Assembly (NCBI GenBank): GCA_964500725.1
Contig: CAZCNP010000001.1
Span: forward strand, 321,520 to 385,519
Reading direction: 5' to 3'
DNA: 64,000 bases
Origin: an uncultured Gammaproteobacteria bacterium
Lineage (GTDB): Bacteria > Patescibacteriota > Microgenomatia > Daviesbacterales > UBA10151
Part shown: piece after piece, positions 25,401-45,011 of the stretch
How positions within the stretch are numbered: position 1 is the stretch's first letter
Layout of the letters: each line of letters starts with the position of its first letter
Position numbers and translations under genes: made by a program
Notes under the pieces: model-generated
Told to the model about the DNA's origin: nothing
Seen by the model: the letters and a program-made list of their open reading frames with translations, nothing else
Database searches by the model: none

Positions 25401-28400
25401 TATAGGAGTATCTGCTACAGGAGCTAAACTTTCTTTAAATGGCGGAGCATATATCTGGCCAATTACAACTAATATTGCTGCTCCTGATAATGGCTTGGCT
25501 GTATATGGCAATGTGGGTATTGGTACTACTACTACCAATGCTGCTTTAACAGTGATAGGAGGAATAACCAGTACTGGTAATGTGGGTATTGCTAACTCTG
25601 CTCCATCATATACTTTGGATGTAATAGGTACTGGCAGATTCTCTTCTACTCTGCTAGCTAATACCTTCTCATCATCAGATGTAACAATCACAGGAGGAAC
25701 TATTAATGACACTACTATTGGAGCAACTATTACCTCAACTGGAGCTTTTACCACTTTAACTTCATCAGGTAATACCACCTTGGGTACAGGAGCATCATCT
25801 GTCAATACCATTGGTTCAACCACTACTCCAGGAACTCTAACCCTGCATGGAGCCACTACTTTGGACAATACCTTCACTGTTTCAGGAGCCAATCTCACTT
25901 CTTTGGGTGGGAACTTATCTTTTACTGGCACTGCTCCATCTTTAACTTCTGGATCATCAGTACTAGGAATATTTGCTGGAGGTAATGTAGGAATTGGGAC
26001 TACTTCTGCCATGGCCTCCTCTTTTAATGTTAATGGCAATCAGGTTATTGGTTCATCTTTCATTGGAGGTGCTGCCCCCACTAATGGATTAGCAGTCCAG
26101 GGTAATGTTGGTATTGGGACAACTACTACTACTAATGCCTTAACTGTTGCAGGTAATGTTAATACTACTGGTAATTTAGGAGTTGGAACATCAGCTACAG
26201 GAGGATATAACTTAACAGTACAGGGTACTACCAGTATTACTGGAGCTGCCACTTTTGGATCTACTGGTACCTTTGCCTCTACCTTAACAGCTTCCAATGG
26301 CTTAACTTTAACAACTGGAGCTTTAAATCTAACCTCTACCTCAGGACAGGCTAATCTAGCTCTAACCAATAACACCAACACCTTCACTGTTAATGGATTA
26401 TTTGGGATAGACACTACCAATAACAGAGTTGGTATTGGAACCACTGCCCCCTCTGCAGCAAGGCTTGAAGTTATTGGAGCAGGATCCGTGACAGGACGCA
26501 CCTTCTGGGTTACTGGATCAAATCTTTCCTCAGGCCTGGCAGTACTGGATAATGGTAACGTGGGTATTGGTATTAGTGGACCAACTGCCAGTTTGGATAT
26601 TGTGGGAACCTCATATACTACTGCCTTAGATCAATCTCAAACAAGTACTAATGGATTTTATAGCTCCAGTATACAAGCGCAATCTTTCACCCCTTCTGTT
26701 ACCGGCCCTTTCATGTATGCTGATATAAAAATCCAATCAGGAGGAGGAGCTCCAGGCAATACCGCTCTTACCCTCCGCTCAGGAGAAGATGTTTCAGGTA
26801 CAGTTTTGGCTACTTCAACCAGTGTTGCCAGTTTAGGCAGTGGTTGGTATCGGATTACTTTTGACAATACCCCTACTTTAACTGCCGGACAGCAATACAC
26901 CATCCGCTATGATAGAACAAGTACAAACGACTGGGGAATACAAGGTGCTAATCCCTATTCTGGAGGAAGATTCTATGGCTTAGGAGCTTGGAAAACCGAT
27001 GATGGTGCCTTTAAAACTTATGTCTATACAACAGATACTACACTGGCAGATGCAGTTAAAATGGCTAATAATTACACCTCGGCAAACAGCGGGGCTGTTT
27101 TAAACATTACCACAGCTGGAATAGCTGGAAGCTATGCCTTAAGAGTTAACGATGACGGTACATTTACCGATACCTCCCCCTTTGTTATTGATACTACTGG
27201 TAATGTTGGTATAGCTAACTCTGCTCCATCATATACCTTGGATGTAGTAGGAACTGGAAGAATATCTTCTAATCTAACAATAGGTGGATCATTAACTTCT
27301 ACTGGTAACCTACTTCCTTCAGCTGATGATACTTATGATTTAGGTTCTTCTTCTGCCAGATGGCAAGATCTCTATGTTGGCCCCACATCCTTAAATCTAG
27401 TTTGTACTGCAGGAGAATGTGGTACAGCCAGAACTTGGAATATTGGTGTTCAGGAATCTTCTGGAGTAGCAGCTGCCCAAGGTAATTTAAGGATTGGGCT
27501 TTCTTCCAGTAGAGACTTTCTCAATATTAACACCTCTGGAAATTTAGGAATTGGGACCAGTAATCCAGGAAACCTTTTGACTGTTTCAGGAGGCAATATT
27601 GAAATTTCCAGCGCTTCTCCACAGTTGATTTGGACAGACACCACAGCTGGTCAGGATGCTTTTGGAGCTATAGCCAACAGCGATTACTTAGAATTTATGT
27701 CCGGAGGCACCAGAAATATTTTAGTCTTGGCTGGTGCAACCCACGCAAATGCAGGTAATGTGGGGATTGGAACAGCAACTCCTGCCTTTAAACTGGATGT
27801 TAATGGTGGCATCAATTCAGGTACATCTGCTGGATATTCTGTTGGATCGTGGCTTGGTATGTCTTATGCAGCAAATGGAGCAAGTTATAACTTAAACTTA
27901 GGTGGTATTAATGCCTCTACCTGGGTGGGACTAGGTCTTTTCACTTCTGGCACAGAAAAGGTCAGAATCGATACAAATGGCGCACTATATTCAGGCAATA
28001 TTGGTACCTCTATTGCTAATGCTAATTTATTTGTCTCAGGGGCTACCTCTGGAAATGTTGGTATCGGCACTACAACTCCAAATACCAGACTGGATGTTAT
28101 AGGTAATGGGACTTATGCTGCTGATTTCATGAATGGAAGTGTGGGAATTGGAACTAGCAGCCCTCAAGCTACCCTTCATGTAGCTTCTGCCTTTACTGCA
28201 GTTTCAGATACTGGCAGCACTGGTGGTAACTTAATTATTCAAGGAACTGATACTACCAGGGATCCAACTCATGGGGCTGCTTTAAGCTTCTATCTTCCAG
28301 CTACTACAGCAGGAGGAAATCCTTATGTTCAAGCCAGAATTATAGGAGCACCAGATAATAGTTCTAATAATAATACTTCTGGAAGATTAATTTTCCAGAC

Positions 28401-31400
28401 TAGAAATAATACCAGCGCCTCTTTCAATAATGCCATGATGATAGATTCAAATGGAAATGTTGGCATTGGCACAACTGGGCCTAATGCTAAACTGGATGTG
28501 ATTGGTGGAATCAGGGTTACTAATACGAGCAGCACCAATGCTCTTGTGTTTGGTCTTGCAAATAGCAATCATTACCTCAAGCTCTACGCAGATACAGACA
28601 CTGGTATCAGCTACATTAAGAACTTATCTAACTATGATATTAGACTGGGACATGCAAGCAGTGATGATGTAATAATCAACTCTGCTGGTAATGTAGGTAT
28701 AGCAAACTCTGCTCCAAGTTATACCCTGGATGTTATAGGTACAGGCAGATTCTCTTCTGACCTTACTGTTGGAGGAAACTTAACTGTCTCTGGCACTACT
28801 TTTTCTGCCTCAGGAGCTGCAGGATCTTTTGATTCTTTAACAGTTGGTGGAGGTTATGGATCAACTGGAGTAACTATTTCCAATGCTGGGGTAATCCAAG
28901 CCAATGGGACTTTAACTGTTGATTCTACCTCTACTTTAACAGGAGCTGTCAGTATTGGAGCTTCCAATGCTGCTTTAACATTTACTGGTACTACTCCATC
29001 AATCACTTCTGGTTCCTCTGTCTTTGGAATCTTTGCTGGGGGGAATGTGGGAATAGGGACCACCTCTACCATGGGGTCAACTTTGAATGTTTCAGGTAAT
29101 CAGGTTATTGGTTCATCTTTCATTGGTGGAGCTGCTCCACAAAATGGATTAGGGATTCAGGGTAATGTTGGTATAGGCACTACTACTGCTACCTCTTATA
29201 ATCTTCAAGTTGTAGGGACTATTGGTTCAACCAGTGGTATTACTATAGATGCTGGAGCAGGCAGCTCTAATGCAACTCTTACTCTCGCAGGAAGAAATTC
29301 TGGGACAGCCCATTCTGCTTCTGTTTTCTCCAATTTTAACGGAGGCCTTAATCTAAAACCAGCCACAACTGGCAGTGATATTAATGTCTATCTTTGGAAT
29401 AATGCCACAGCTTCTACCTCCAATACCATGCCTTTAAACTTTGATTTAAATGCTACCACAGATGGTAAAACTACTTTTGCTCAAATCATGGGTCTTTCTA
29501 CTGATATTACCTCGGGAGCTGCCTCTGGAGCTTTATCTTTCTACACCAAAAATACTGGATCCTTGAAGGAAAGAATGAGGATAGATCTAAACGGTAACGT
29601 TGGTATTGGTACTTCTGCTCCATTTACTGCATTAACAGGAGCCTTCCAAGTAGCACCAGTTTCTGCCCCTGCTGCTTTCTTTGTAGGAAGTACAGGTAAT
29701 GTTGGGATAGGGACTACTGCCCCTACTAACAACTTATCAGTTATAGGCAATGTTAATACCACTGGTAATTTGGGAGTAGGGACATCTGCCACAGGTGGAT
29801 ATAACCTAACAGTAAATGGAACTGCTAGAATCTCAGGAAATATAGGTATAGGTGGTACTGCTACCTTCAGTAATCCAACTATCTTTAACAATGGTATTAC
29901 CAATAATGGAGTCTTTTCTCAGACAGGACAATTCCTAGCAGGAGATGGATCAGCTGCAGCTCCTTCGTATTCCTTCACCAGTTCCACTGGAGCAGGCCTC
30001 TGGTCACCATCTTCTAACAATATTGCCCTAACTACTGGAACTCCTACTACAACTGGTACCATTAAAGGAATCTCTGTTGATTCCTCTGGTAATGTAGGAA
30101 TTGGGACTTCTAATCCAGCAGGGCTTTTGGACATTGTTAAATTAGGAAATGATAACCCAATCTATATAGATCGATATAGTACAAACAATGGCCATGTTCC
30201 CACAATCCAATTCCGCACCAGCCAACAAAACAGTCTAGGCAACACTGCCACCACTATTAGCAACATGTATGGAAGACTTGAATGGTATGGGAATGATGGT
30301 AACGGCTTCCAAAGGGCTGCCTATATTCAAGCACAGCAGGGTTCAAGTACTGCAACTGATGCTGACTTAACAATATCTACAGGTGCAAGCGGAACAATTT
30401 TCATGGAAGGGAGTTCTGGCAATGTTGGTATTAACAATGCTGCTCCTGTGGCTAAATTACATTTAACAGGAGCTGGGATTACCACTGGAGTTAACTTCCT
30501 CTCCACAGGAGCTGGTGGAGGTGGAGGTCTAGTAGGTATTTTAGATAATGGCAATGTTGGAATAGGGACAACTGCACCAGGACAGAAACTGGATGTGGTT
30601 GGTACTATTAAATTTGGTTCCGGGGGTTATTACTCTTTGGGCACAGATCCTACCCGACTGGAAATAAGAAATGCCGCCAACGATTCCATCGCTCTTTATA
30701 CGAACGGTACGCGCGGCTTACTTATGACTGGGTCTCAAAAAGTCACAGTTGGAGGAGATATTTCTGGTGGTAATAGTTTATTCAATGTTCAAGGTGGTAC
30801 AGCAATTGGGTCAAGTTATTACCTGGCGACAGCTCCTACCAACGGCCTATTAGTTGAAGGTAATGTTGGTATTGGTACCACCAGCCCGATCACTAAATTA
30901 GATGTTAGCGGTGGAGTTGGAGACACTTCATCTACTGATCCTCAATTCTCTCTTTCCAGATGGTCTTCAACTGGTAATAACGAAGTAGTCAAATTTAGAT
31001 TAATGGAGCAAGCTTCAGGTGGCACTAACTTTGGGGTATTTACCATCCAAACCAAGAGTACAGCCTCTGCAGCAGAAAGCGATAGTTACTACACTAATGC
31101 TTTCTCAATCACTGCAGCTGGAAATGTTGGTATTGGTACCACTGGACCAGCTGTTAAGCTTGATGTTGTTGGTGGAGGAAACTATGTTGACGGTTTGAGA
31201 TTAAGATATTCTGCCTTAACTAACGGATGGAACTTTGCTCAGGGGACTGGCGGACAACTTTATTTTGGTTATGGCTCTGCTGCTTCACCAACAACCATGA
31301 TGCTGATAGATACCAATGGCAATGTTGGTATTAATAATGCTGCTCCTGTGGCTAAACTTCATTTAACTGGAGCAGGAACAACTACTGGGGTTAATTTCCT

Positions 31401-34371
31401 CTCTACTGGAGCTGGTGGAGGGGGTGGACTGGTAGGGATTTTAGATAATGGTAATGTTGGGATTGGCAACACCGGACCCTCTCAGTTATTCCAAGTAGGA
31501 CCCAATACTTCTGCTGGATCTTCTGCTATGGTATTTACCTCAGGGGGTAACTTAGGTATTGGCACAACTGGACCTGTTGGTAAGTTTGATGTTACTGATA
31601 CCTCCAACACTGGTGCCTCTTTCTCTCTAACAAATAATACTGCCACTACTATTGGAGCTGGAGTAAATACCTTGGGAGTTCTAGACCTCCAATCCACCTC
31701 TTTGACTACTGGTAACTTTATGAATATAGAATTAAATGCCCTATCTTCTGGAAAAGGTATTAATTTAACCTCTACTTCTACTGCATTTTCTACTGGATCT
31801 TTCTTAAACTTAAATTGGTCTCCTACCACCTCTACTACAGCTACAGGTGACCTAGTTTCAATTGGTATTGGAGTATCTGGAAATGTAGGAAACTTACTTA
31901 ATATTACAGATTCAGGTTCTTCTATCTTTGCTGTATCAGAATCCTCATTAACTACATCACTTCCTGCTAACTTTACTGCTGCTGGAGATGTGGCTATAGC
32001 TTATGATATTAACTTTACCAATCCTACTGCCTCATATGTTAAATCTGCTGCCCCACTATACTTACAAGCTGGAGAAACCTTTAACTCCTCAGACCTGACT
32101 TTGAAAACCTTTAACTCTGGTCAGGGAGTGTTTGATTTTGCAGGAGGAGCCAGTTTTATCCAGCCCCAAACCTGGAACTTCCCTGCTACCACTTCTATCA
32201 ATGCCTTAACATTTTCTGATTCAGCAGGCAATGATTTATTAAACCTGGATACTGCCAATACTAGGGTAGGAATAGGCACTTCTAATCCATCAGCTACTTT
32301 CCAGGTCAATGCCACCGGCACTTCTTCTTTTGTGGTTAACTCTTCAGGTAATGTGGGAATTGGAACTTCTACCACAGGTGTACCTTTGACTATCAGAAAC
32401 CTTGGCACCACCTCAGGAACTGCCTTAGTAGTAGATAGCGAAGGCCAGGTTTATAAAACAAGTTCTTCTTTAAGATATAAAAACAACGTTGCCAATTTAA
32501 ATAATAACTTTGCCAAAATTTTACAGGTTGCTCCCAAATCCTTCAATTATAAAGATACAGGAGCTGCTGATATAGGTTATATAGCAGAAGACTTTGATAG
32601 CTTGGGTCTTACAGATTTGGTACTTTATGATAACCAGGGCAGACCTGATAGTATTAAGTACGATCGGGTTGCCCTTTATGCTGTAGAAATATTGAAAAGC
32701 CAGAATCTCACCCTTAACAACTTAACTAATGCCTTATCTGTAATTGGTGGAAATGTAGGCATTGGAACCACCAATCCAACTGCTGCTTTGGATGTAGTTG
32801 GAGATACTAATATTATGGGGGTACTTTCTGTCAAAAACTCCTTGGGACAAAATCTATTCCAGGTAGATGCTTCTGGTTCTGCCAAACTGGCAGGAACTAT
32901 CACAACTGAGGCAGGAGCTTTTGATATAGCAGAAGACTATCAAGCTGAGGCAGGAATAGAAGCTGGAGATGTGGTTGCTATTTCGGAAGACAGCAGCGCT
33001 GATAACCCACAAGTAGAAAAAACCACCTCCTCCTACCAAAACAATGTCTTAGGTATTATTTCTACCAAAGCAGCCCTTAGACTTAGCTCAGGGTCTTCGA
33101 CCACCGACTCTCAACCTATCGCTTTAGTTGGTAGAGTGCCAGTCAAAGTTTCTACAGAAAATGGAGCTATACAAAAGGGAGATTACTTAACATCCTCATC
33201 TATACCAGGTGTTGCTATGAAAGCAACCAGACCAGGACAAGTTATAGGAAAAGCATTAGAATCATATTCAGAGACAGGAGTTGGCAAAATACTTATCTTT
33301 GTAAATATATCCTTTGCTGATCCAGGCAATTTCTTATCTTCCCTATCTTTGGATGATGAAGGCAATTTGATAATTCCTAAGATAAAAACTGCTAGTATTG
33401 CCCTGGATCCAAAAGTTGCCACAACGCAACAATTGGCACTCGACAATGACCAATTAACAAGCGCAGAGACCTTAAATGATAAGTCTCAAATGTCGAATGA
33501 CACTTACTATGATTTAGGCGGCAAGATTGCCTCGCTGGAGGAAAGAATTACTGAGTATGAAGAAAAGATTAAAGACTTAGAAGCTAAGGTAAATAGTGCC
33601 CCTGAGGCTACTTCTTCAGCAGAAATTAAAGATTTGGCTGATGAACTGTTAACCAGCTCAGAAAAATTGGTAGCAGAGGCCACCTCCTCAGCTACACCTT
33701 CGGCTGTCTTAGCAGATGAAACATTAAACTTAACTCCTCCTGAAGTCCTACTTAACCAGGCTTCTGCTGTCTTGACTGATTTGGAAGTTAAATCAGAAGC
33801 CACTGTTTCTGGACAATTAACTGCCTATAACTTAAATGTCCAAGACGGACTCAAATCTTTGGGAACAACCTCTTTGGGTAATACTACTATTGCTGGAGAT
33901 TTGACTGTTGATGGCACATTATCAATAGAAAATGGTAATGAGATTAATGTCTTAGGTACTCTCTACTTGCAAAAATCTATCCTGGCAACTGCTGTAGATA
34001 TCTTCAATGGCTTGGTAACTATAGATAATAAAGGTAATTTAACAGCTCAAACTATTATAGCTGAGGAAATAGTAACCACTAAATTGACAATTAATGCCAA
34101 GCCTAAAGAGGCTAGCTCCTCAGCTACTTTGGGCACTTCTACTAATGCCACCATTGGATCTGGTAAAATCCTTGCTGGAAAGACCAAAGTAGCCATATTT
34201 ACCAACCAAATCACTGAAGCTTCAAAGGTATTTATCACTTTGAAATCATCTAGCTTGGGTCAAACCCCTTATGTTGAAACTACCCTATCAGGCAAAGGCT
34301 TTGTAGTGAGCATTGATCAAACTGTTGGTAAAGATATTGATTTTGACTGGTGGATTATAAGCACACGATGA
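16417..34371 (+). CDS. Giant surface-fibre protein precursor (5,984 aa): N-terminal MerR/excisionase-like HTH, single TM, hundreds of GNVGIG-type fibre repeats, three inteins, internal peptidase-S74 intramolecular-chaperone domain, C-terminal coiled coil
   Basis: Single uninterrupted ORF. N-terminus LVKIAQASKLLGVHKDTLRRWEKAGKIKVVRDQKGDRLYD is an HTH; FYFMAAGFFLLLVLIGLGYI is a TM. Recurring 35-45-aa repeats carry the motif GNVGIG[TA]..P...L.V.G. Intein and S74 signatures are listed separately. Confidence 0.85.
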   Translation: MLKVNSSKKSLVKIAQASKLLGVHKDTLRRWEKAGKIKVVRDQKGDRLYDVSKLINSAPASQTSKVPTTEQLLKSASQHAQQSTLQPQLPALDYSALLDQTISKDNKQTGRRFYFMAAGFFLLLVLIGLGYIRVLSTQSKPQIITSLENKILAAITSQPLVKINADVKVRGSLSVSNDINGLAIATDSAGFTLTSENGKLTVVGDALLNQDLSSSGSPTFSSLNLSSTSNQLVFQSGGPAGTLTWTPTAARTITLPDTTTTLVGKDTTDTFTNKSISGSSNTFTNIPNSALTNKKITVTAGTNLTGGGDVELGSSITLSLKESPTFSGVVLLSDGTAAAPGLAFSNDTNTGLYRIGTDKIALITGGLATSGITIDSSGNLGIANNSPAYKLDVTGTANITSNTTIGGTLGVTGISTFSSTMGVSSGLSVGSTYSSLSPPTSGAIIEGNVGIGTSAPGSFALNVSGNTYLNGRLETSGNVGIANSAPSFTLDVVGTGRFSSLLNVLGNIGIGTSGAAGSALQVNGGGLFGWGTTSTALSSGAILGVNGNVGVGTTSPLANLHVVGQCVVGETKLKRRRRKKGKNGEWSDEYEDVEIKDIKEGDEILTLDESTGRFVPAKVNALKDMGIKEIFELTTATGKTIRTTGNHPYLALGVEHLALTSHDSASGVTGASLLNSTILSLTRGNKDHRIAVFIDAANLEKSVEKIGFKVHYKNLKRLIASLGSLDYIGYFTVATSSEQNVTLRQSLLRFGYNVVTKPLKLIKTAKGLKPKADVDVEITTEVMERKDDFDLMILFSGDSDFYYPIKLLQEKYGKKVIVISTRYSVSRELLKVADRYIDIAKLKGEIARGQKESPSFATGDSSFDESNLTTALQTISDILPFVKNLGKWTKVSGLKTGQMIAAVGKDNQPQFEKIASIKKVKREQVFDIEVEGTHNFVGNDIVAHNTFITGNVGIGAAFTTSGIVTPTNGLAVQGNVGIGTSTTNAALTVIGGITTTGNVGISNSAPSFTLDVVGTGRFSSDLTVSGTTFSASSAAGSFDSLTVGGGYGSTGVSISNAGVIQANGALTADGLITGSTGLTITGGVVSLNASSNNAVNINTGSSTGALTLGGGSGTVEVASTSWDISTLGAISGVTGITTSGGYTQSGTSENLFTGNVGIGVSATGAKLSLNGGAYIWPITTNIAAPNNGLAVYGRVGIGTTSPATNLHLIDTSGNTEIARFTSTTNSKDSYVQFNTTSSTSSMGLQLSSTAANSVGMRIDGSGNLSFHTGAASSSVMANNNKKMTIDTNGNVGIGSSASNGISAIQLFQVNGTSSSPFVVTSAGNVGIANSAPSFTLDVVGTGRFSSLLNVLGNVGIGTSGVAGSALQVNGGGLFGWGTTSTALSSGAILGVNGNVGVGTTSPLANLHVVGQCVVGETKLKRRRRKKGKNGKWIDEWEEVEIKDIKEGDEILSLNESTGEFIPRKVKGLLGMGMQEVYEILTEEGKTIQTTKNHPYLVDLSETAGTALHFIQKATFEYSERLGKEFYIDHLAGKKIKSKALNDTINFTHTGWNHFTEKSRSINELITRFFALPYAITVLSQASKVKIHEERKKPDMVVEYWIFEEIIEYALIRVVISAVNHGPKFFLSCSWLGTQAEGGILANKKELSLSQAVTPGRRRELVIPQLFTKLFIPKNVKNVKWVEVRNLTVGASIATISGWEKIVSIKNMGRKSTFDIEVAGTHNFLGNNIVAHNTFITGNVGIGAAFTTSGIVTPADGLAVQGNVGIGTTTTNAALTVIGGITSTGNVGIANSAPSYTLDVIGTGRFSSTLLANTFSSSEVTITGGTINNTSIGATVTSTGAFTTLSASGALAANGGITFDNATDTLGAFTAAGTINMNGNIITNIGATDTSFATTGALAITLDGADASGALSVSNASQTSDIFVAKDNTTAVFTIKDGGNVGIGFTSPSALLHLRQTGSGNAFYVEDQADDTSSPFVINADGNVGIANSAPSYTLDVVGTGRISSDLVVNGTTFSASSAAGSFDSLTVGGGYGSTGVSISNAGVIQANGALTADGLITGSTGLTITGGVVSLNASSNNAVNINTGSSTGALTLGGGSGTVEVASTSWDISTLGAISGVTGITTSGGYTQSGTSENLFTGNVGIGVSATGAKLAINGGAYIWPTTTAISAPNDGLAVYGNVGIGTTTPLANLHVVGQCVTGDTRLRRRKKKKNGEWSDEYEDIEIKDIQAGDQILSLNEKTGQFEPHTVLALKDMGIHQTFELITASRKSIRTTANHPYLIKQQKTRLSASSLTEFNADALYSGLSINTLPQNTNNVKSMTARSGTNVDLTGIEPANPDFSDPSVHQYQAHIKLLSHKWIKVSGLKPGMEIATINGWEKIAAIKKFAREQVFDIEVEGTHNFVGNDIVAHNTFITGNVGIGAAFTTSGIVTPTNGLAVQGNVGIGTTTTTNALTVAGNVNTTGNLGVGTSATGGYNLTVQGTTSITGAATFGSTGTFASTLTASNGLTLTTGALNLTSTSGQANLALTNNTNTFTVNGLFGIDTTNNRVGIGTTAPSAARLEVIGAGSVTGRTFWVTGSNLSSGLAVLDNGNVGIGISGPTASLDIVGTSYTTALDQSQTSTNGFYSSSIQAQSFTPSVTGPFMYADIKIQSGGGAPGNTALTLRSGEDVSGTVLATSTSVASLGSGWYRITFDNTPTLTAGQQYTIRYDRTSTNDWGIQGANPYSGGRFYGLGAWKTDDGAFKTYVYTTDTTLADAVKMANNYTSANSGAVLNITTAGIAGSYALRVNDDGTFTDTSPFVIDTTGNVGIANSAPSYTLDVVGTGRISSDLVVNGTTFSASSAAGSFDSLTVGGGYGSTGVSISNAGVIQANGALTADGLITGSTGLTITGGVVSLNASSNNAVNINTGSSTGALTLGGGSGTVEVASTSWDISTLGAISGVTTLNMSGAITAATASNTINGLIINSGALSGVTGITTSGGYTQSGTSENLFTGNVGIGVSATGAKLSLNGGAYIWPITTNIAAPDNGLAVYGNVGIGTTTTNAALTVIGGITSTGNVGIANSAPSYTLDVIGTGRFSSTLLANTFSSSDVTITGGTINDTTIGATITSTGAFTTLTSSGNTTLGTGASSVNTIGSTTTPGTLTLHGATTLDNTFTVSGANLTSLGGNLSFTGTAPSLTSGSSVLGIFAGGNVGIGTTSAMASSFNVNGNQVIGSSFIGGAAPTNGLAVQGNVGIGTTTTTNALTVAGNVNTTGNLGVGTSATGGYNLTVQGTTSITGAATFGSTGTFASTLTASNGLTLTTGALNLTSTSGQANLALTNNTNTFTVNGLFGIDTTNNRVGIGTTAPSAARLEVIGAGSVTGRTFWVTGSNLSSGLAVLDNGNVGIGISGPTASLDIVGTSYTTALDQSQTSTNGFYSSSIQAQSFTPSVTGPFMYADIKIQSGGGAPGNTALTLRSGEDVSGTVLATSTSVASLGSGWYRITFDNTPTLTAGQQYTIRYDRTSTNDWGIQGANPYSGGRFYGLGAWKTDDGAFKTYVYTTDTTLADAVKMANNYTSANSGAVLNITTAGIAGSYALRVNDDGTFTDTSPFVIDTTGNVGIANSAPSYTLDVVGTGRISSNLTIGGSLTSTGNLLPSADDTYDLGSSSARWQDLYVGPTSLNLVCTAGECGTARTWNIGVQESSGVAAAQGNLRIGLSSSRDFLNINTSGNLGIGTSNPGNLLTVSGGNIEISSASPQLIWTDTTAGQDAFGAIANSDYLEFMSGGTRNILVLAGATHANAGNVGIGTATPAFKLDVNGGINSGTSAGYSVGSWLGMSYAANGASYNLNLGGINASTWVGLGLFTSGTEKVRIDTNGALYSGNIGTSIANANLFVSGATSGNVGIGTTTPNTRLDVIGNGTYAADFMNGSVGIGTSSPQATLHVASAFTAVSDTGSTGGNLIIQGTDTTRDPTHGAALSFYLPATTAGGNPYVQARIIGAPDNSSNNNTSGRLIFQTRNNTSASFNNAMMIDSNGNVGIGTTGPNAKLDVIGGIRVTNTSSTNALVFGLANSNHYLKLYADTDTGISYIKNLSNYDIRLGHASSDDVIINSAGNVGIANSAPSYTLDVIGTGRFSSDLTVGGNLTVSGTTFSASGAAGSFDSLTVGGGYGSTGVTISNAGVIQANGTLTVDSTSTLTGAVSIGASNAALTFTGTTPSITSGSSVFGIFAGGNVGIGTTSTMGSTLNVSGNQVIGSSFIGGAAPQNGLGIQGNVGIGTTTATSYNLQVVGTIGSTSGITIDAGAGSSNATLTLAGRNSGTAHSASVFSNFNGGLNLKPATTGSDINVYLWNNATASTSNTMPLNFDLNATTDGKTTFAQIMGLSTDITSGAASGALSFYTKNTGSLKERMRIDLNGNVGIGTSAPFTALTGAFQVAPVSAPAAFFVGSTGNVGIGTTAPTNNLSVIGNVNTTGNLGVGTSATGGYNLTVNGTARISGNIGIGGTATFSNPTIFNNGITNNGVFSQTGQFLAGDGSAAAPSYSFTSSTGAGLWSPSSNNIALTTGTPTTTGTIKGISVDSSGNVGIGTSNPAGLLDIVKLGNDNPIYIDRYSTNNGHVPTIQFRTSQQNSLGNTATTISNMYGRLEWYGNDGNGFQRAAYIQAQQGSSTATDADLTISTGASGTIFMEGSSGNVGINNAAPVAKLHLTGAGITTGVNFLSTGAGGGGGLVGILDNGNVGIGTTAPGQKLDVVGTIKFGSGGYYSLGTDPTRLEIRNAANDSIALYTNGTRGLLMTGSQKVTVGGDISGGNSLFNVQGGTAIGSSYYLATAPTNGLLVEGNVGIGTTSPITKLDVSGGVGDTSSTDPQFSLSRWSSTGNNEVVKFRLMEQASGGTNFGVFTIQTKSTASAAESDSYYTNAFSITAAGNVGIGTTGPAVKLDVVGGGNYVDGLRLRYSALTNGWNFAQGTGGQLYFGYGSAASPTTMMLIDTNGNVGINNAAPVAKLHLTGAGTTTGVNFLSTGAGGGGGLVGILDNGNVGIGNTGPSQLFQVGPNTSAGSSAMVFTSGGNLGIGTTGPVGKFDVTDTSNTGASFSLTNNTATTIGAGVNTLGVLDLQSTSLTTGNFMNIELNALSSGKGINLTSTSTAFSTGSFLNLNWSPTTSTTATGDLVSIGIGVSGNVGNLLNITDSGSSIFAVSESSLTTSLPANFTAAGDVAIAYDINFTNPTASYVKSAAPLYLQAGETFNSSDLTLKTFNSGQGVFDFAGGASFIQPQTWNFPATTSINALTFSDSAGNDLLNLDTANTRVGIGTSNPSATFQVNATGTSSFVVNSSGNVGIGTSTTGVPLTIRNLGTTSGTALVVDSEGQVYKTSSSLRYKNNVANLNNNFAKILQVAPKSFNYKDTGAADIGYIAEDFDSLGLTDLVLYDNQGRPDSIKYDRVALYAVEILKSQNLTLNNLTNALSVIGGNVGIGTTNPTAALDVVGDTNIMGVLSVKNSLGQNLFQVDASGSAKLAGTITTEAGAFDIAEDYQAEAGIEAGDVVAISEDSSADNPQVEKTTSSYQNNVLGIISTKAALRLSSGSSTTDSQPIALVGRVPVKVSTENGAIQKGDYLTSSSIPGVAMKATRPGQVIGKALESYSETGVGKILIFVNISFADPGNFLSSLSLDDEGNLIIPKIKTASIALDPKVATTQQLALDNDQLTSAETLNDKSQMSNDTYYDLGGKIASLEERITEYEEKIKDLEAKVNSAPEATSSAEIKDLADELLTSSEKLVAEATSSATPSAVLADETLNLTPPEVLLNQASAVLTDLEVKSEATVSGQLTAYNLNVQDGLKSLGTTSLGNTTIAGDLTVDGTLSIENGNEINVLGTLYLQKSILATAVDIFNGLVTIDNKGNLTAQTIIAEEIVTTKLTINAKPKEASSSATLGTSTNATIGSGKILAGKTKVAIFTNQITEASKVFITLKSSSLGQTPYVETTLSGKGFVVSIDQTVGKDIDFDWWIISTR
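18112..19251 (+). mobile_element. Intein 1 (380 aa) in the giant ORF, carrying an NYN/LabA-like domain in the endonuclease position
   Basis: Starts CVVGETKL (block A). TTGNHPYL is block B (TxxH). VFDIEVEGTHNFVGNDIVAHN is block F/G, ending HN; the +1 residue is T (TFITGNVGIG). In frame: aa 566-945 of the host ORF. Confidence 0.8.
18478..18933 (+). other. NYN (LabA-like, PIN-related) nuclease domain embedded in intein 1
   Basis: IAVFIDAANL ... DVDVEITTEV ... LFSGDSDFYYPIKLLQEKYGKKVIVIS ... ADRYIDI. Clear paralogy to the free-standing NYN protein at 47173..47667 (AFIDASNI ... CDVDLTMDML ... LTGDGDFAPLL...IIIIS ... GDEHIDF). Confidence 0.7.
20650..21612 (+). mobile_element. Intein 2 (321 aa) with an unknown ~200-aa insert domain
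   Basis: CVVGETKLKRRRRKKGKNGKWIDEW...TTKNHPYL ... STFDIEVAGTHNFLGNNIVAHN|TFITGNVGIG; aa 1412-1732. The insert (20905..21500) contains PDMVVEYWIFEEIIEY and IDHLAGKK with no recognisable family. Confidence 0.75.
23002..23643 (+). mobile_element. Intein 3 (214 aa), mini-intein
   Basis: CVTGDTRLRRRKKKKNGEWSDEY...TTANHPYL ... QVFDIEVEGTHNFVGNDIVAHN|TFITGNVGIG; aa 2196-2409. No endonuclease-sized insert. Confidence 0.75.
23393..23461 (-). ncRNA. tRNA-like element antisense to intein 3: canonical acceptor stem, anticodon arm and T-arm, non-canonical D-arm
   Basis: Reverse complement GGGCCTG-GTACTGGTGTACGCT-CGGGT-CTGAGAA-ATCTG-GGTTT-GCGGG-TTCAATT-CCCGT-CAGGTCC-A. 7-bp acceptor with one G-U; T-loop TTCAATT; anticodon loop CTGAGAA. 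The D region can only form GTAC/GTAC with a 4-nt loop. Confidence 0.25.
23702..27270 (+). repeat. Intragenic tandem duplication: 1,196-bp perfect repeat (23702..24897 = 26075..27270), period 2,373 bp
   Basis: Identical nucleotide strings. Antisense ORFs 24285..24530 and 26658..26903 in the ORF track have identical translations. Both copies encode TNGLAVQGNVGIGTTTTTNALTVAGNVNTTG...GTGRISS. Confidence 0.85.
32455..32735 (+). other. Peptidase S74 / intramolecular chaperone auto-processing domain (as in phage endosialidase and tail-fibre C-termini), internal to the giant ORF
   Basis: SSLRYKNNVANLNNNFAKILQVAPKSFNYKDTGAADIGYIAEDFDSLGLTDLVLYDNQGRPDSIKYDRVALYAVEILKS matches the S-x-R-x-K-x-N-[IV]...Y.YK.....IG.IA.[ED] pattern. 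About 550 further residues follow it, including a coiled coil (SLEERITEYEEKIKDLEAKV). Confidence 0.6.
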
Positions 34372-34859
34372 ACACAGATCATAAAAAAAGCATGATTCTC
34401 ACGGATAAAAAACAGATCAACACCGATCAGTCTACATCCGCTTTAAATCCGCCTAAATCCTCTTCAGGATTATTATTTGCCGACTTAACTTACAGGATTC
34501 GGGGAGCAATATTCACAGTTTACAACCAGCTAGGGTTTGGTCACAAAGAACAAGTTTACCAAAAAGCTTTAGAAAAAGAATTAATAGAAACTAAACTACC
34601 TTTTAAAAGAGAAGTTAGTTTAAATGTGAAATATAAAGATGAAGTGATAGGAAGCTACAGACCTGATTTTGTTGTAGATGATAAAGTAATTGTTGAGTTA
34701 AAAGCTGTTGAGTTTATGCCTAAATCTTTTGAAACCCAGTTAATCCATTATTTAAAAACTACTGGTTATCAATTAGGACTATTGGTTAACTTTGGTTCTA
34801 CTAAGTTAGTTATCAGAAGATTGCTATGGACAGGTCAGAAGGGAGATTCTCACAAATGA
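34350..34859 (+). CDS. GxxExxY-family protein (PD-(D/E)xK-like small nuclease-fold protein); probable start at M15 (34392)
   Basis: LTYRIRGAIFTVYNQLGFGHKEQVYQKALEKEL...YRPDFVVDDKVIVELKA contains the GxxExxY signature and a D...E.K triad. The ORF-track start overlaps the 3' end of the giant ORF. Confidence 0.6.
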   Translation: MDYKHTMNTDHKKSMILTDKKQINTDQSTSALNPPKSSSGLLFADLTYRIRGAIFTVYNQLGFGHKEQVYQKALEKELIETKLPFKREVSLNVKYKDEVIGSYRPDFVVDDKVIVELKAVEFMPKSFETQLIHYLKTTGYQLGLLVNFGSTKLVIRRLLWTGQKGDSHK

Positions 34860-41155: not shown

Positions 41156-41932
41156 ATGAAAAAAATCTTAATTATTTTTCTTTTATCCAGTCTAGGTTTT
41201 TTTGTGCTAACAACTTCTGCTTATGCTCAAGCCATCTCTTCTGGTGCAACTTATACCTATAAAATAGATGATACTAAAGCAGTTGATGGAGATATTTTAA
41301 CCATGTCTGATAAGGGCTTAGTTAGGGCTAATACTCCTTATACTGGCAGTATTTTTGGTGTGGTGCAAAACGATGCAGTGATAATAATTGAGCTGCTTGA
41401 CGAAGGCGGCCAACCAGTAGCTAGGTCTGGTATTGCCAAAGTTAATGTCACAAATGCCAATGGCCCAATTAAAAAGGGCGGTCTTATCGCTGTCTCTACT
41501 ACCCCAGGAAAAGGCCAACGGGCTGATAAAGCTGGGTATGTGCTGGGAACTGCTCTGGCTGATATGAATGAGGCTACTGGGCAAATCCCTGTAGCTTTGG
41601 AAATCAAATCCTATGATCTTTCCACTACCCTTAACTCAGCTACAGCCAATAGATTCTTAAAATCACTTGACGGTATTTTGCTCGCCAGCACAGAGGACCC
41701 AGAAAAACTTTCCCAACTTGTCAGGTATGTTGCAGCAGCAATTATTGTGCTGGGAGCTTTTGCCATTAGCTTTTTTACCTTTTCCAAATCTATGGCCAAC
41801 TCTGTTGAGGCAATTGGACGAAACCCCTTAGCCAAAAATTTTATCTTTTCTTCCCTGGTAATCAATATTGTTATTACTGTGGTTGTTTTGGGGGTTGCCC
41901 TGGCTGCTGCTTTTATTTTAATTAAGTTTTAA
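41156..41932 (+). CDS. Secreted/membrane hypothetical protein: signal peptide and a C-terminal two-helix membrane hairpin
   Basis: Signal peptide MKKILIIFLLSSLGFFVLTTSAYA; TM helices AAAIIVLGAFAISFF and FIFSSLVINIVITVVVLGVALAAAFILI. Confidence 0.4.
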   Translation: MKKILIIFLLSSLGFFVLTTSAYAQAISSGATYTYKIDDTKAVDGDILTMSDKGLVRANTPYTGSIFGVVQNDAVIIIELLDEGGQPVARSGIAKVNVTNANGPIKKGGLIAVSTTPGKGQRADKAGYVLGTALADMNEATGQIPVALEIKSYDLSTTLNSATANRFLKSLDGILLASTEDPEKLSQLVRYVAAAIIVLGAFAISFFTFSKSMANSVEAIGRNPLAKNFIFSSLVINIVITVVVLGVALAAAFILIKF

Positions 41933-44886: not shown

Positions 44887-44893
44887 GCTTAAG

Positions 44894-44966
44894 TATCCCT
44901 GGAGGGAATTGCACCCCCGACCAACCCCTTAGGACGGGGCTGCTCTATCTACTGAGCTACAGGGAC
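44894..44966 (-). tRNA. tRNA-Arg (anticodon CCT)
   Basis: Reverse complement GTCCCTG-TA-GCTC-AGTAGATA-GAGC-A-GCCCC-GTCCTAA-GGGGT-TGGTC-GGGGG-TGCAATT-CCCTC-CAGGGAT-A. Cloverleaf with G1-U72 and an atypical T-loop (G at position 55). Confidence 0.6.
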
Positions 44967-45011
44967 AATCATATGTATAATTTTATCACTAAAGAAGATA
45001 TAATTCGATCA

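What the first reader, a model, noticed from the sequence alone, without database searches (positions are those of the whole stretch)
32455..34371. Internal peptidase-S74 chaperone module followed by ~550 more residues
The S-x-R-x-K-x-N-[IV] ... Y-x-Y-K ... I-G-x-I-A-x-[ED] signature (SSLRYKNNV...FNYKDTGAADIGYIAEDF) is that of the self-cleaving intramolecular chaperone found at the extreme C-terminus of phage endosialidases and tail spikes. There the chaperone is ~150 aa and is discarded after trimer folding. Here it is followed by ~550 aa that include another GNVGIG repeat, a beta-rich region and a heptad coiled coil (SLEERITEYEEKIKDLEAKV). Autocleavage at the conserved Ser would therefore release a large C-terminal product of unknown function.
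Basis: partly seen in the sequence, partly recalled or inferred. Interest (0 to 1): 0.6.

Follow-up and report, generated by a model that had tools for sequence, protein, structure and literature searches.

The report
Two self-cleaving chaperones in tandem
The tail end of a 5,984-residue surface-fibre protein from an ultrasmall (Patescibacteria) bacterium has a genuine phage-type self-cleaving folding domain, followed by a second, unrelated one and a conserved end-piece, so the "extra 550 residues" are the family's standard tail, not an unknown payload.

Summary
Residues 5350-5443 of the giant ORF (window 16417-34371) form a Peptidase_S74 intramolecular chaperone domain. It scores above the Pfam threshold. 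Ser5350 and Lys5355 align with the catalytic pair of solved chaperones, and 541 residues follow the domain.

Those residues are not of unknown nature. They contain:
- a GNVGIG fibre unit;
- a beta-tulip domain homologous to the phi29 gp12 "D4" auto-chaperone (Peptidase_G2 type), whose D5503-x-A-E5506 motif aligns with the phi29 cleavage site S691|D692;
- a coiled coil and a beta-rich segment;
- a tailspike-type C-terminal beta-sandwich (K1-lyase_C-like).

This 545-residue cassette is the usual C-terminus of a very large Patescibacteria family of fibre proteins anchored by an N-terminal MerR HTH and one membrane helix. Most members lack S74. The S74 domain is therefore the optional insert, seen in about 4% of related loci, and its catalytic pair is kept in 12 of 13 internal copies.

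Cleavage at S5349|S5350 is plausible but untested. So is a second cut at F5502|D5503.

Verdict: a new variant of known phage-fibre maturation modules, internal and in tandem, on a cellular giant fibre. Interest is moderate.

The parts
16417..34371 (+). Giant ORF, 5984 aa. It is a fibre protein with an N-terminal MerR HTH, one membrane helix, about 53 GNVGIG repeats, three inteins and the C-terminal cassette described here.
   Evidence: ORF list and translation; repeat positions; Pfam. The GNVGIG region matches Bdellovibrio MAT fibre Bd2133, 8ond, E 4.9e-07.
16453..16563 (+). MerR-type helix-turn-helix, aa 13-49. Presumed cytoplasmic.
   Evidence: PF00376 E 1.5e-10 and PF13411 E 3.2e-06. 20 of 48 homologues of the C-terminal cassette carry the same N-terminus.
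16750..16815 (+). Single hydrophobic segment, aa ~112-133 (RFYFMAAGFFLLLVLIGLG...). Presumed membrane anchor with the N-terminus inside.
   Evidence: It is the only 19-residue window in the protein with mean Kyte-Doolittle hydropathy >1.8. The K/R residues lie on its N-terminal side (read from the sequence).
32464..32745 (+). Peptidase_S74 intramolecular chaperone domain, aa 5350-5443. The predicted scissile bond is S5349|S5350. The domain ends in a 29-residue helix (aa 5415-5443).
   Evidence: Pfam PF13884 above threshold. Profile hits to solved chaperone domains. AF2 gives an alpha/beta domain with pLDDT 73-92 and a long terminal helix. Foldseek matches MyRF ICA 7dc3 (prob 1.00) and GA-1 3gud (prob 0.91).
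32464..32481 (+). Catalytic pair motif S5350-S-L-R5353-Y-K5355.
   Evidence: S, R and K are invariant in alignment A3. They align with the SDxRxK of 3gud, 6f45, 8jov and MyRF. The S-x4-K spacing equals endoNF S911/K916, MyRF S587/K592 (PMC8326128) and T5 S1264/K1269 (PMC4690869).
32746..32907 (+). GNVGIG fibre unit and short beta strands, aa 5444-5497. This is where homology with S74-less family members begins.
   Evidence: Alignment with ~900-aa MerR-type homologues starts at GGNVGIG, aa ~5443. pLDDT is low to moderate as a monomer.
32908..33345 (+). Beta-tulip domain homologous to the phi29 gp12 D4 auto-chaperone (Peptidase_G2 type), aa 5498-5643.
   Evidence: Profile vs PDB: 28nb_A Dpo31 D4 chaperone E 3e-4, 3gqh_A E 3.7e-4, 6qz9_A E 1e-3. 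Foldseek: 3suc is the top hit (E 3.6e-05) and 3gqh_A has TMt 0.54; beta-tulip decoration proteins also match. pLDDT >90. 5 of 48 homologues reach Pfam PF11962, best E 4.4e-09.
32923..32934 (+). D5503-I-A-E5506 motif. It aligns with phi29 gp12 D692-F-A-E695 just after the S691|D692 cleavage site, so the predicted second scissile bond is F5502|D5503.
   Evidence: Alignment to 6qz9_A residues 689-745 ('TWS DFAEYF') and to residue 1 of 3gqh_A. Across 395 domain copies with a residue there, D is 96%, A 94% and E 97% conserved. Mature gp12* ends at residue 691 (PMC6542822).
33496..33702 (+). Coiled-coil segment, aa 5694-5762. It includes SLEERITEYEEKIKDLEAKV.
   Evidence: AF2 helices at aa 5700-5727 and 5734-5759. 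There are only weak coiled-coil Pfam hits. The segment is conserved as a module in homologues.
33829..34077 (+). Conserved beta-rich segment, aa 5805-5887 (LTAYNLNVQDGLKSLG...DLTVDGTLSI...). It is probably an intertwined trimeric beta structure.
   Evidence: Conserved in homologues, with nearly invariant G, N, L and Q, and recovered as a module in 49 of 81 related ORFs. There is a weak Bactofilin-like hit. The monomer model is poor.
34144..34365 (+). C-terminal beta-sandwich, aa 5910-5983. It is of the tailspike C-terminal / K1-lyase_C type.
   Evidence: 16 of 48 homologues hit PF24146 K1-lyase_C, best E 1.3e-09. pLDDT is ~90. Foldseek matches the C-terminal domains of Pam1 tailspike 7eea, K64-1 depolymerase 9k4a, Sf6 4urr and phi297 4ru5.

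Best explanation
Window 32464-34368 encodes the C-terminal assembly cassette of a giant, trimeric surface fibre that resembles a phage tail fibre. The fibre belongs to a Patescibacteria (Microgenomates/Daviesbacteria-like) cell. It is anchored by an N-terminal MerR HTH and one membrane helix, so the C-terminus is the distal end.

The cassette holds two different phage-type intramolecular chaperone and autocleavage modules in series:
1. an S74 domain (aa 5350-5443, Ser5350/Lys5355);
2. a phi29-gp12-D4 / Peptidase_G2-like beta-tulip (aa 5498-5643, D5503-x-A-E5506).

These are followed by a trimerising coiled coil, a beta-rich segment and a tailspike-type beta-sandwich.

Inferred mechanism:
- The C-terminal modules bring three chains into register, and folding proceeds towards the N-terminus, as in phage fibres.
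- Once the upstream beta-helix is correctly trimerised, Ser5350, activated by Lys5355, cuts the S5349|S5350 bond.
- The G2-like module may cut F5502|D5503.
- The products would be the mature fibre, a 153-aa piece and a 482-aa piece (635 aa if only S74 cuts).

Shown here: the identity, homology, order and conservation of all modules and motifs, and that S74 is a facultative insert in front of a family-wide cassette.

Inferred only: that either cut occurs, and that the cassette then leaves to expose the fibre tip.
For: S74 identity and catalytic pair.

The pair is kept in internal copies. S+K is present in 12 of 13 complete internal S74 domains found, and one has K->R.

G2/D4 homology:
- sequence profiles;
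- fold, with 3suc as top hit and 3gqh also matching;
- Pfam PF11962 on homologues;
- DxAE 94-97% conserved over 395 copies.

The cassette is the family norm:
- 554 word-index hits, many of them ~900-aa MerR-HTH proteins at 99% coverage without S74;
- at least 559 stretches in GTDB species representatives across many Patescibacteria lineages;
- architecture counts.

The same S74 -> G2-like -> coil -> beta -> sandwich order occurs in P0132, P0109, P0149 and L002.

Functional equivalence of the two modules:
- In L002, L009 and L013, S74 is fused directly to the beta-tulip and the Asp of DxAE is lost.
- The related phages GA-1 and phi29 use S74-type and D4-type chaperones respectively on the same appendage protein (PMC8326128, PMC4690869).

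High conservation of the cassette (40-50% identity across lineages) contrasts with a variable fibre, which fits an assembly role.

Precedents:
- Bdellovibrio MAT surface fibres share the GNVGIG-type motif and self-cleave at S74 (Bd3182 S782; PMC10769870).
- phi29 and K1F spikes aggregate without their C-terminal chaperones (PMC3357383).
Against: - No experimental or proteomic evidence of cleavage exists for this protein.
- The window protein itself does not reach Pfam Peptidase_G2, even at E<=10.
- Sequence similarity to phi29 D4 is confined to two short collinear motifs, with E ~1e-3 to 1e-4.
- No Arg lies 14 residues upstream of the Ser, where endoNF and T5 have their folding-sensor Arg. That position is Ala5336 and the nearest Arg is 5327 (read from the sequence). 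MyRF does without such a contact (PMC8326128).
- In the ~900-aa family members the cassette makes up most of the ectodomain, which is odd for something thrown away.
- The G2-like domain is usually internal and often repeated: 139 of 252 proteins have more than one copy, and only 12 of 395 copies lie within 60 aa of a C-terminus. It may therefore be a retained structural node.
- From my own recollection of Xiang et al. 2009, which I could not read here, release of phi29 D4 needs ATP. ATP is not available outside the cell.
- The AF2 models are monomers of an obligate trimer.
Confidence: 0.6

Rival explanations
1. Retained-node or functional-tip model. The S74 and G2-like domains serve mainly as in-line trimerisation and registration nodes. 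They either do not cleave or are nicked but stay attached. The conserved coiled-coil / beta / beta-sandwich end is the working distal tip of the fibre (adhesin or docking module), not a discarded chaperone.
For: - G2-like domains are mostly internal, often multiple per protein, with a median of 330 aa downstream.
- In ~900-aa homologues the cassette is most of the ectodomain.
- The last domain resembles the retained C-terminal domains of tailspikes such as Sf6, Pam1 and phi297.
- The P22 tailspike keeps its C-terminal auto-chaperone (PMC3357383).
- Bdellovibrio NS74 fibres end in beta-sandwich tip domains 'that substitute for the S74 chaperone' (PMC10769870).
- phi29 D4 is cleaved but needs ATP for release (own recollection of Xiang 2009; a pre-mature gp12 structure, 3suc, exists).
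Against: - The near-invariant Ser/Lys pair in internal S74 copies and the DxAE motif are hard to explain without catalysis.
- Loss of the DxAE Asp exactly where S74 is fused in front suggests the motif's role can be taken over by a protease module.
- A host-recognition tip would be expected to vary between lineages, yet this cassette is the most conserved part of the protein.
Confidence: 0.3
2. A canonical discardable S74 chaperone has acquired a novel ~550-aa C-terminal extension, which autocleavage releases as an effector of unknown function.
For: The S74 domain and catalytic pair are real. The downstream part has no direct Pfam, NCBIfam or single-sequence PDB hit.
Against: - The extension is older and far more widespread than its association with S74.
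- It is made of fibre-assembly modules, namely a phi29-D4-like beta-tulip, a coiled coil and a tailspike C-terminal domain.
- No enzymatic or toxin domain was detected.
Confidence: 0.07
3. Artefact or foreign DNA. The internal S74 results from a chimeric assembly or a fused ORF, or the gene is a prophage tail-fibre gene rather than a cellular one.
For: - S74 and G2-like modules are typical of phage fibres.
- The closest S74 relatives are terminal chaperones of short 'tail fiber domain-containing' proteins.
- A serine recombinase next to two tRNA genes lies about 11 kb downstream.
Against: - The ORF is uninterrupted for 17,955 nt.
- The same module order recurs in independent assemblies: P0132, P0109, P0149, L002, L009 and L013.
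- The flanks are cellular genes, including glycosyltransferase, LeuRS, ArgRS and ATP synthase.
- The N-terminus is an HTH plus membrane anchor shared by the cellular family.
- No record among 50,697 phage genomes has both modules together.
Confidence: 0.03

Closest known systems
C-terminal intramolecular chaperone domains of phage fibres and spikes (Peptidase S74: K1F endosialidase endoNF, T5 pb1, GA-1 gp12, S16 gp37)
   Same: - Same Pfam family.
- S-x-x-R-x-K motif with the same Ser/Lys spacing.
- Alpha/beta domain ending in a long helix that forms the central triple coiled coil in solved examples.
- Preceded by a beta-helical fibre (PMC4690869, PMC8326128).
   Different: - It is not at the C-terminus: 541 aa follow it.
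- It is short, about 94 aa against 133-153 aa, and apparently lacks the long 'tentacle' hairpins.
- No Arg lies at the -14 sensor position.
- The host molecule is a cellular, membrane-anchored 6-kaa protein, not a virion protein.
phi29 gp12 D4 auto-chaperone (MEROPS/Pfam Peptidase_G2; PDB 3gqh, 3suc) and Dpo31 D4 of podovirus Carin-1 (28nb)
   Same: - Beta-tulip fold.
- Collinear motifs D-x-A-E-x-[YF]...G-[DY]-[VL]-V...I-G-V-[IV]-S and V-[AG]-L-x-G-[RQ]-[VI]-x-V-[KR]-V.
- The conserved Asp sits at the position that becomes the new N-terminus in phi29 (D692) and Dpo31 (Asp664; PMC13317679).
   Different: - Here it is internal, with 341 aa downstream, and follows another chaperone.
- The window protein falls below Pfam detection.
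- The setting is extracellular, without ATP.
- Family members often carry several copies.
Bdellovibrio bacteriovorus MAT (mosaic adhesive trimer) surface fibres (Bd2133, Bd3182; PMC10769870)
   Same: - A cellular, phage-like trimeric fibre with GNVGIGT..P...L-type repeats (8ond E 4.9e-07).
- Mosaic C-terminal ends.
- An S74 subgroup shown to self-cleave (Bd3182 S782).
   Different: - MAT fibres end either in S74 or in a non-S74 tip. This protein has S74 and then a non-S74 end.
- MATs have a signal peptide and a conserved ~130-aa N-terminal domain. This protein has a MerR HTH, a membrane helix and three inteins, and is 5-6 times longer.
MyRF (myelin regulatory factor), the established case of an internal S74/ICA domain
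   Same: - An S74/ICA domain in the interior of a membrane protein that also has an N-terminal DNA-binding domain.
- Cleavage depends on trimerisation of the ICA helix (PMC8326128).
- Profile E 6.3e-06 to 7dc3.
   Different: - In MyRF the order is DBD - ICA - TM, so cleavage frees the DNA-binding trimer.
- Here the order is HTH - TM - fibre - S74 - cassette, so cleavage would act outside the cell and could not free the HTH.
- The DNA-binding folds differ (MerR vs Ndt80).

Membership tests
Peptidase_S74 intramolecular chaperone (CIMCD/ICA) | Significant match to the family model (Pfam PF13884) over its full length | tested here: met
   aa 5350-5402, model positions 1-57 of 58, E 9.7e-07, 29.4 bits against a cut-off of 22. 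Profile hits to 6f45, 8jov, 7dc3, 8hqz and 3gud.
Peptidase_S74 intramolecular chaperone (CIMCD/ICA) | Catalytic Ser and Lys five residues apart (S-D/S-x-R-x-K) | tested here: met
   S5350 and K5355 are invariant in A3. They align to the Ser that starts the released GA-1 chain and to the Lys of solved homologues. The spacing is as in endoNF, MyRF and T5 (PMC8326128, PMC4690869).
Peptidase_S74 intramolecular chaperone (CIMCD/ICA) | Alpha/beta chaperone body ending in a helix able to form the central triple coiled coil | tested here: met
   The AF2 monomer has short helices and strands, then a 29-residue helix at aa 5415-5443, pLDDT 73-92. Foldseek prob is 1.00 to MyRF ICA and 0.91 to 3gud. Trimer formation itself was not modelled.
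Peptidase_S74 intramolecular chaperone (CIMCD/ICA) | Located at the extreme C-terminus and discarded after folding (phage and Bdellovibrio members) | tested here: not met
   541 aa follow the domain. In the 120 best profile hits the median is 3 aa after the domain. MyRF shows that this feature is not universal.
Peptidase_S74 intramolecular chaperone (CIMCD/ICA) | Autoproteolysis at the Ser after trimerisation | not testable with these tools
   This needs expression with S5350A/K5355A controls, or proteomics.
Peptidase_G2 / phi29 gp12 D4 auto-chaperone | Match to the family model (Pfam PF11962) | tested here: inconclusive
   The window protein gets no hit even at E<=10. Its homologues do: 5 of 48, best E 4.4e-09, over the region that aligns with aa ~5486-5556.
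Peptidase_G2 / phi29 gp12 D4 auto-chaperone | Sequence homology to solved D4 domains | tested here: met
   Profile A4: 28nb_A E 3e-4, 3gqh_A 3.7e-4, 6qz9_A 1e-3, each with two collinear motif matches. Profile A1: 3gqh_A E 0.0011.
Peptidase_G2 / phi29 gp12 D4 auto-chaperone | Beta-tulip D4 fold | tested here: met
   Foldseek on the AF2 model (pLDDT >90 in this domain): 3suc is top hit at E 3.6e-05, and 3gqh_A has TMt 0.54. Beta-tulip decoration proteins also match. 3SUC is listed among beta-tulip structural homologues (PMC7602432).
Peptidase_G2 / phi29 gp12 D4 auto-chaperone | Conserved Asp (new N-terminus after cleavage) and Glu three residues later | tested here: met
   D5503 and E5506 align with phi29 D692 and E695. 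They are 96% and 97% conserved over 395 copies. That these residues are catalytic is my recollection of MEROPS and Xiang 2009, not verified here.
Peptidase_G2 / phi29 gp12 D4 auto-chaperone | C-terminal position; autocleavage followed by ATP-dependent release | tested here: not met
   Position: 341 aa follow the domain. Cleavage and ATP dependence are not testable here, and the ATP-site residues could not be checked because Xiang 2009 is not held.
Bdellovibrio MAT fibre family | GNVGIG-type capping-loop repeats in a trimeric beta-helical fibre | tested here: met
   The profile aligns GNVGIGT..P...L units to Bd2133 8ond (E 4.9e-07), 8on4, 8ol4 and 8ojn. There are 53 such repeats in the ORF.
Bdellovibrio MAT fibre family | Signal peptide followed by the conserved ~130-aa N-terminal beta-rich domain | tested here: not met
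   The N-terminus is a MerR HTH, with the only hydrophobic segment at aa 112-133. I made no direct comparison with the MAT N-terminal domain.
MyRF-type membrane-tethered transcription factor | DNA-binding domain and ICA on the same side of the membrane, so that cleavage frees the DNA-binding trimer | tested here: not met
   The order here is HTH (aa 13-49) - TM (aa ~112-133) - fibre - S74 (aa 5350). Cleavage cannot free the HTH.

The most novel reading that the evidence does not exclude
The two self-cleaving modules may turn the giant precursor into a non-covalently held, multi-piece fibre outside the cell, where there is no ATP. The conserved 482-635-aa trimeric end would then be a programmed break-away or shed element. 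It could act as a force-sensitive joint, like GAIN or SEA autoproteolytic domains, or as a released trimer. Either would let an epibiotic Patescibacteria cell detach from, or signal to, its host. More broadly, the DxAE beta-tulip would mark a pervasive, undescribed autoprocessing system in the giant surface proteins of these bacteria. It is internal, often repeated, and lies in the query stretch that scores best in most of the 150 top hits, out of 10,313 representative clusters matching the 306-aa S74-to-beta-tulip query at E<=1e-10.
Probability: 0.12. Interest if true: 0.8.

Novelty: new variant of a known kind. Interest (0 to 1): 0.55.

Why it matters
Intramolecular chaperone-proteases of the S74 and phi29-D4 types are understood as terminal, throw-away devices for folding trimeric phage fibres. 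Here both occur together, internally, on a cellular protein: a 6-kaa membrane-anchored fibre of an ultrasmall, probably epibiotic bacterium.

The D4-like beta-tulip with its near-invariant DxAE motif turns out to be a standard, often repeated part of a very large family of Patescibacteria surface proteins. Databases currently label these proteins 'MerR family regulator', 'replicative DNA helicase' or 'hypothetical'.

If the cuts occur, these giant proteins are self-processing precursors. Their mature surface forms, and therefore the parts that touch host cells, would differ from what the gene models suggest.

The case also gives a natural test of whether the two chaperone types are interchangeable. 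Relatives with S74 fused directly to the beta-tulip have lost the DxAE Asp.

The predictions are concrete: new N-termini SSLRYK... and DIAEDY..., and fragments of 153 and 482 aa. They are cheap to test.

Tried and rejected
Searches that gave nothing useful:
- Direct annotation of the downstream 545 aa. Pfam at E<=10 gave only weak coiled-coil and Bactofilin noise. NCBIfam gave nothing. PHROGs gave only the S74 part and noise. Single-sequence phmmer against PDB gave nothing relevant. Homology only appeared with family profiles.
- The word-index search with the S74 region alone found just 7 proteins. The profile version returned only short proteins of <=240 aa. It shows that terminal placement is the norm, but the sample is biased.
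- Xiang et al. 2009 (phi29 gp12 mechanism) is not held under its DOI or PMC2692858. Searches for Peptidase_G2, Glu695 or Asp692 returned nothing relevant. Catalytic roles and ATP-dependent release are therefore cited from my own memory only.
- No held paper links S74 with Patescibacteria, and none of the giant-gene papers listed by title and abstract (not opened) concerns this Patescibacteria fibre family.

Ideas considered and rejected:
- A degenerate S74 remnant in the ~900-aa MerR homologues. The extended phmmer alignments of P0014 and P0027 suggested this, but a local alignment shows no S74 there.
- Prophage origin or misassembly (see rivals).
- A MyRF-like release of the HTH, which the domain order excludes.
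- Extra cryptic S74 or G2-like copies elsewhere in the giant ORF. None was found at E<1e-3.

Full report
**1. What is at the coordinates**

The finding (window 32455-34371) is the 3' end of one uninterrupted ORF, 16417..34371 on the + strand, 5984 aa.
SSLRYKNNV starts at aa 5350, IGYIAEDF at 5386, a further GNVGIG at 5445, and SLEERITEYEEKIKDLEAKV at 5706.
- Pfam Peptidase_S74 (PF13884) matches aa 5350-5402 over essentially the whole model, E 9.7e-07, 29.4 bits against a gathering score of 22.
- The rest of the ORF carries an N-terminal MerR helix-turn-helix (aa 13-49) and a single hydrophobic segment (aa ~112-133).
- It also has 53 GNVGIG-type repeats, and three inteins at aa 566-945, 1412-1732 and 2196-2409.
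- The flanking genes are cellular: glycosyltransferase, LeuRS, ArgRS, ATP synthase and two tRNAs.
- The LeuRS is identical to one in MAG GCA_016198315.1.
- All close homologues come from Patescibacteria, such as Daviesbacteria and Microgenomates.

**2. The S74 domain is genuine and complete**

- A profile of aa 5325-5444 plus nine homologues (A3) hits solved intramolecular chaperone domains. These are phage S16 fibre 6f45 (E 7.5e-12), 8jov (1.2e-09), MyRF ICA 7dc3 (6.3e-06), T5 pb1 8hqz (0.015) and GA-1 gp12 3gud (0.085).
- Ser5350 aligns with the first residue of the released GA-1 chaperone chain. Lys5355 aligns with the Lys five residues later.
- The same spacing holds for endoNF S911/K916 and MyRF S587/K592 (PMC8326128) and for T5 S1264/K1269 (PMC4690869).
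- S5350, R5353 and K5355 are invariant in A3.
- An AF2 model of aa 5290-5650 gives an alpha/beta domain with pLDDT 73-92 that ends in a 29-residue helix at aa 5415-5443.
- Foldseek relates it to MyRF ICA (prob 1.00) and to GA-1 3gud (prob 0.91).
- The closest relatives (47-57% identity: P0121, P0122, P0125) are terminal chaperones that stop 95-105 aa after the Ser.
- The domain here is therefore aa 5350-5443, about 94 aa, rather than ~150.

**3. What follows is not unknown**

Direct searches of the downstream 545 aa gave nothing. A homology search, however, found 554 relatives.

Many are ~900-aa proteins with MerR HTHs at the N-terminus. They carry this same 545-aa region at 99% coverage and have no S74. 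Homology with them starts exactly at GGNVGIG, aa ~5443, where the S74 terminal helix ends.

Profiles of the family then identify the parts.

(a) aa 5498-5643:
- It matches the phi29 gp12 C-terminal auto-chaperone (3gqh_A E 3.7e-4; full-length 6qz9_A aligned at 689-745, 'TWS|DFAEYF'). It also matches the D4 chaperone of tailspike Dpo31 (28nb_A E 3e-4). Each match has two collinear motifs.
- Five of 48 homologues reach Pfam Peptidase_G2, best E 4.4e-09.
- The AF2 models have pLDDT >90 here.
- Foldseek's top PDB hit is 3suc, pre-mature phi29 gp12 (E 3.6e-05). 3gqh_A scores TMt 0.54, and beta-tulip decoration proteins such as phi29 gp8.5 also match.
- 3SUC is listed among beta-tulip homologues in PMC7602432.
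- D5503-I-A-E5506 aligns with phi29 D692-F-A-E695. Mature gp12* ends at residue 691 (PMC6542822), and Dpo31 D4 begins at Asp664 (PMC13317679).

(b) aa 5694-5762 is helical, a coiled coil.

(c) aa 5805-5887 is a conserved beta-rich segment.

(d) aa 5910-5983 is a beta-sandwich with pLDDT ~90:
- It resembles the C-terminal domains of tailspikes Pam1 7eea, K64-1 9k4a, Sf6 and phi297.
- 16 of 48 homologues hit Pfam K1-lyase_C, best E 1.3e-09.

**4. How common each arrangement is**

- The 306-aa query spanning S74 to the beta-tulip found 32,045 representative clusters at E<=0.001 and 10,313 at E<=1e-10.
- In the 150 best hits the top-scoring stretch almost always lies in the beta-tulip, inside proteins of 500-6,000 aa.
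- With home-made HMMs on the 270 proteins collected (a set biased towards this domain), there are 395 beta-tulip copies in 252 proteins.
  - 139 proteins have more than one copy.
  - A median of 330 aa follow the domain, and only 12 copies lie within 60 aa of a C-terminus.
  - D, A and E of DxAE are 96%, 94% and 97% conserved.
- In GTDB species representatives, at least 559 stretches encode relatives. They span Daviesbacteria, Levyibacteriota, Roizman-, Ames-, Woese-, Curtiss-, Doudna-, Nealson-, Falkow- and Uhrbacteria and Saccharibacteria.
- Of 80 loci retrieved, three carry an S74 domain in front of the beta-tulip.
- The full order S74 -> G2-like -> coil -> beta -> sandwich also occurs in P0132. 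P0109 and P0149 have the same order but lack some middle modules. Other internal S74 copies occur in P0047, P0075, P0079, P0136, P0137, P0165 (two copies), P0167 and P0254.
- Twelve of these 13 internal copies keep both Ser and Lys, and P0254 has K->R.
- In contrast, in the 120 best hits of the S74 profile a median of 3 residues follow the domain. That sample consists of short proteins.
- No phage genome among 50,697 has the two modules together. The beta-tulip alone matches PA5oct-like jumbo-phage virion proteins, and S74 alone matches a Synechococcus phage tail fibre. BFVD shows many phage proteins with the beta-tulip.

**5. A hint of functional equivalence**

In L002, L009 and L013 the S74 terminal helix runs directly into the beta-tulip, and the Asp of DxAE is lost. 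In the giant protein, P0132, P0149 and P0109 a GNVGIG spacer separates the two modules, and both motifs are kept, with A->S in some.

The literature already treats the two chaperone types as alternatives on homologous proteins. GA-1 gp12 has the S74-type, and phi29 gp12 has the beta-stranded D4 type (PMC8326128, PMC4690869).

**6. Most likely mechanism**

Shown:
- the identity, order and conservation of the modules;
- the catalytic-type motifs in place;
- that the S74 domain is a facultative insert ahead of a family-wide cassette.

Inferred:
- The protein is N-in, C-out, with the HTH and K/R residues before the single membrane helix. The cassette is therefore the distal, last-exported end.
- By analogy with T5 pb1, K1F and phi29, chains register at the C-terminal coiled coil and chaperone, folding proceeds N-wards, and spikes lacking the C-terminal domain aggregate (PMC4690869, PMC3357383). 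On that analogy the cassette nucleates trimerisation.
- Correct folding of the upstream beta-helix then lets Ser5350/Lys5355 cut S5349|S5350. The D4-like module may cut F5502|D5503.
- Products: the fibre, then 153 aa plus 482 aa, or 635 aa if only S74 cuts.
- Release would expose the variable fibre end, as in T5 pb1 and Bdellovibrio Bd3182 (PMC10769870).
- I put 0.6 on this overall. It breaks down as about 0.9 for module identity, about 0.65 for S74 cleavage and about 0.45 for release of the cassette.

**7. Main rival (0.3)**

The modules may be retained trimerisation nodes, uncleaved or nicked but attached, and the conserved end may be the working tip.

In favour:
- The D4-like domains are internal and repeated.
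- The cassette is most of the ectodomain in the 900-aa members.
- The last domain resembles retained tailspike C-terminal domains.
- P22 keeps its auto-chaperone (PMC3357383).
- By my recollection of Xiang 2009, phi29 D4 release needs ATP, which is absent outside the cell.

Against:
- The catalytic-type residues are conserved.
- The DxAE Asp is lost when S74 is fused directly.
- The cassette is the most conserved part of the protein, not the most variable.

**8. Comparison with known systems**

It works like the phage S74 and phi29-D4 maturation devices and like Bdellovibrio MAT fibres. The GNVGIG units align to Bd2133, 8ond, E 4.9e-07.

It is a sequence and fold member of the S74 family. It is a remote but supported homologue of the D4/G2 family.

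It departs from both in four respects:
- the modules are internal;
- they occur in tandem;
- they sit on a cellular, membrane-anchored, intein-bearing 6-kaa protein;
- they act in an extracellular setting.

MyRF is the established precedent for an internal S74, but its domain order and outcome differ. No held paper links S74 with Patescibacteria, and none of the giant-gene papers listed by title and abstract (not opened) concerns this fibre family.

Verdict: a new variant of a known kind.

**9. Caveats**

- The AF2 models are monomers of a presumed trimer.
- The HMM census is on a biased sample.
- Similarity to phi29 D4 at sequence level is limited to short motifs.
- The catalytic role of D/E and the ATP dependence come from memory, not from a source I could read.
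- Nothing here demonstrates proteolysis.

Noticed in passing
window 18112-19251, 20650-21612, 23002-23643 (aa 566-945, 1412-1732, 2196-2409 of the giant ORF): There are three inteins (Pfam Intein_splicing; the first carries a NYN domain, and the second gives a weak LPD3-like hit). All are inserted at the same repeat motif ...LANLHVVGQ|C...VAHN|TFITGNVGIG of a surface-fibre protein, on the presumed extracellular side of the membrane anchor. Homologues P0001, P0002, P0096 and P0120 also carry inteins, and P0001 is mis-named 'replicative DNA helicase'. It is unclear where and when such inteins splice.
   Followed up: partly
window 16453-16815 (aa 13-133): A MerR-type DNA-binding HTH followed by a single membrane helix forms the N-terminus of the 6-kaa fibre. 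The same is true of about 40% of its homologues, many of which have two HTHs and are annotated 'MerR family DNA-binding transcriptional regulator'. Why a surface fibre is tethered to a DNA-binding domain is unexplained.
   Followed up: partly
window 41156-41932 (+), 258 aa: This is a separate small protein with a signal peptide, a beta-tulip domain of the same family (local HMM E 3.3e-19) that lacks the DxAE motif, and two C-terminal membrane helices. It may be a non-cleaving paralogue, or a membrane partner or dock for the fibre cassette.
   Followed up: partly
L002 (ORF aa 880-1127), L009, L013: In these close relatives the S74 terminal helix is fused directly to the beta-tulip, and the Asp of the DxAE motif is lost. 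The giant ORF, P0132, P0149 and P0109 keep both. This suggests the two cleavage modules are redundant.
   Followed up: partly
giant ORF aa ~2461-2810 and ~3252-3600 (window ~23800-24850 and ~26170-27220); also aa ~1990-2135 vs ~2815-2990: The fibre contains long near-identical internal duplications, seen in the translation (for example the block TTGNLGVGTSATGGYNLTVQG...TFTDTSPFVIDTTGNVGIANSAPSYTLDVVGTGRISS, with a weak DUF4082-like hit). Such repeats would promote recombination and assembly errors.
   Followed up: no
window 4828-10344, 34350-34859, 34826-39877: The giant gene sits among other very large surface-protein genes. These are an 1838-aa DUF5667 protein upstream and a 1683-aa protein with six LamG/ConA-like domains plus DUF2341 downstream. 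A 169-aa PD-(D/E)XK (PDDEXK_3) ORF overlaps the giant ORF's stop codon.
   Followed up: partly
window 44893-47086: A large serine recombinase (Recombinase + Zn_ribbon_recom) lies next to divergent tRNA-Arg(CCT) and tRNA-Pro(CGG) genes. This may be the edge of an integrated element about 11 kb downstream of the giant gene.
   Followed up: no
loci L002, L004, L006, L009, L032, L061 etc.: Many MAGs carrying this Patescibacteria-type cassette are titled 'uncultured Gammaproteobacteria bacterium', including complete chromosomes of 0.89 and 1.6 Mb. The names look like placeholder or wrong taxonomy.
   Followed up: no
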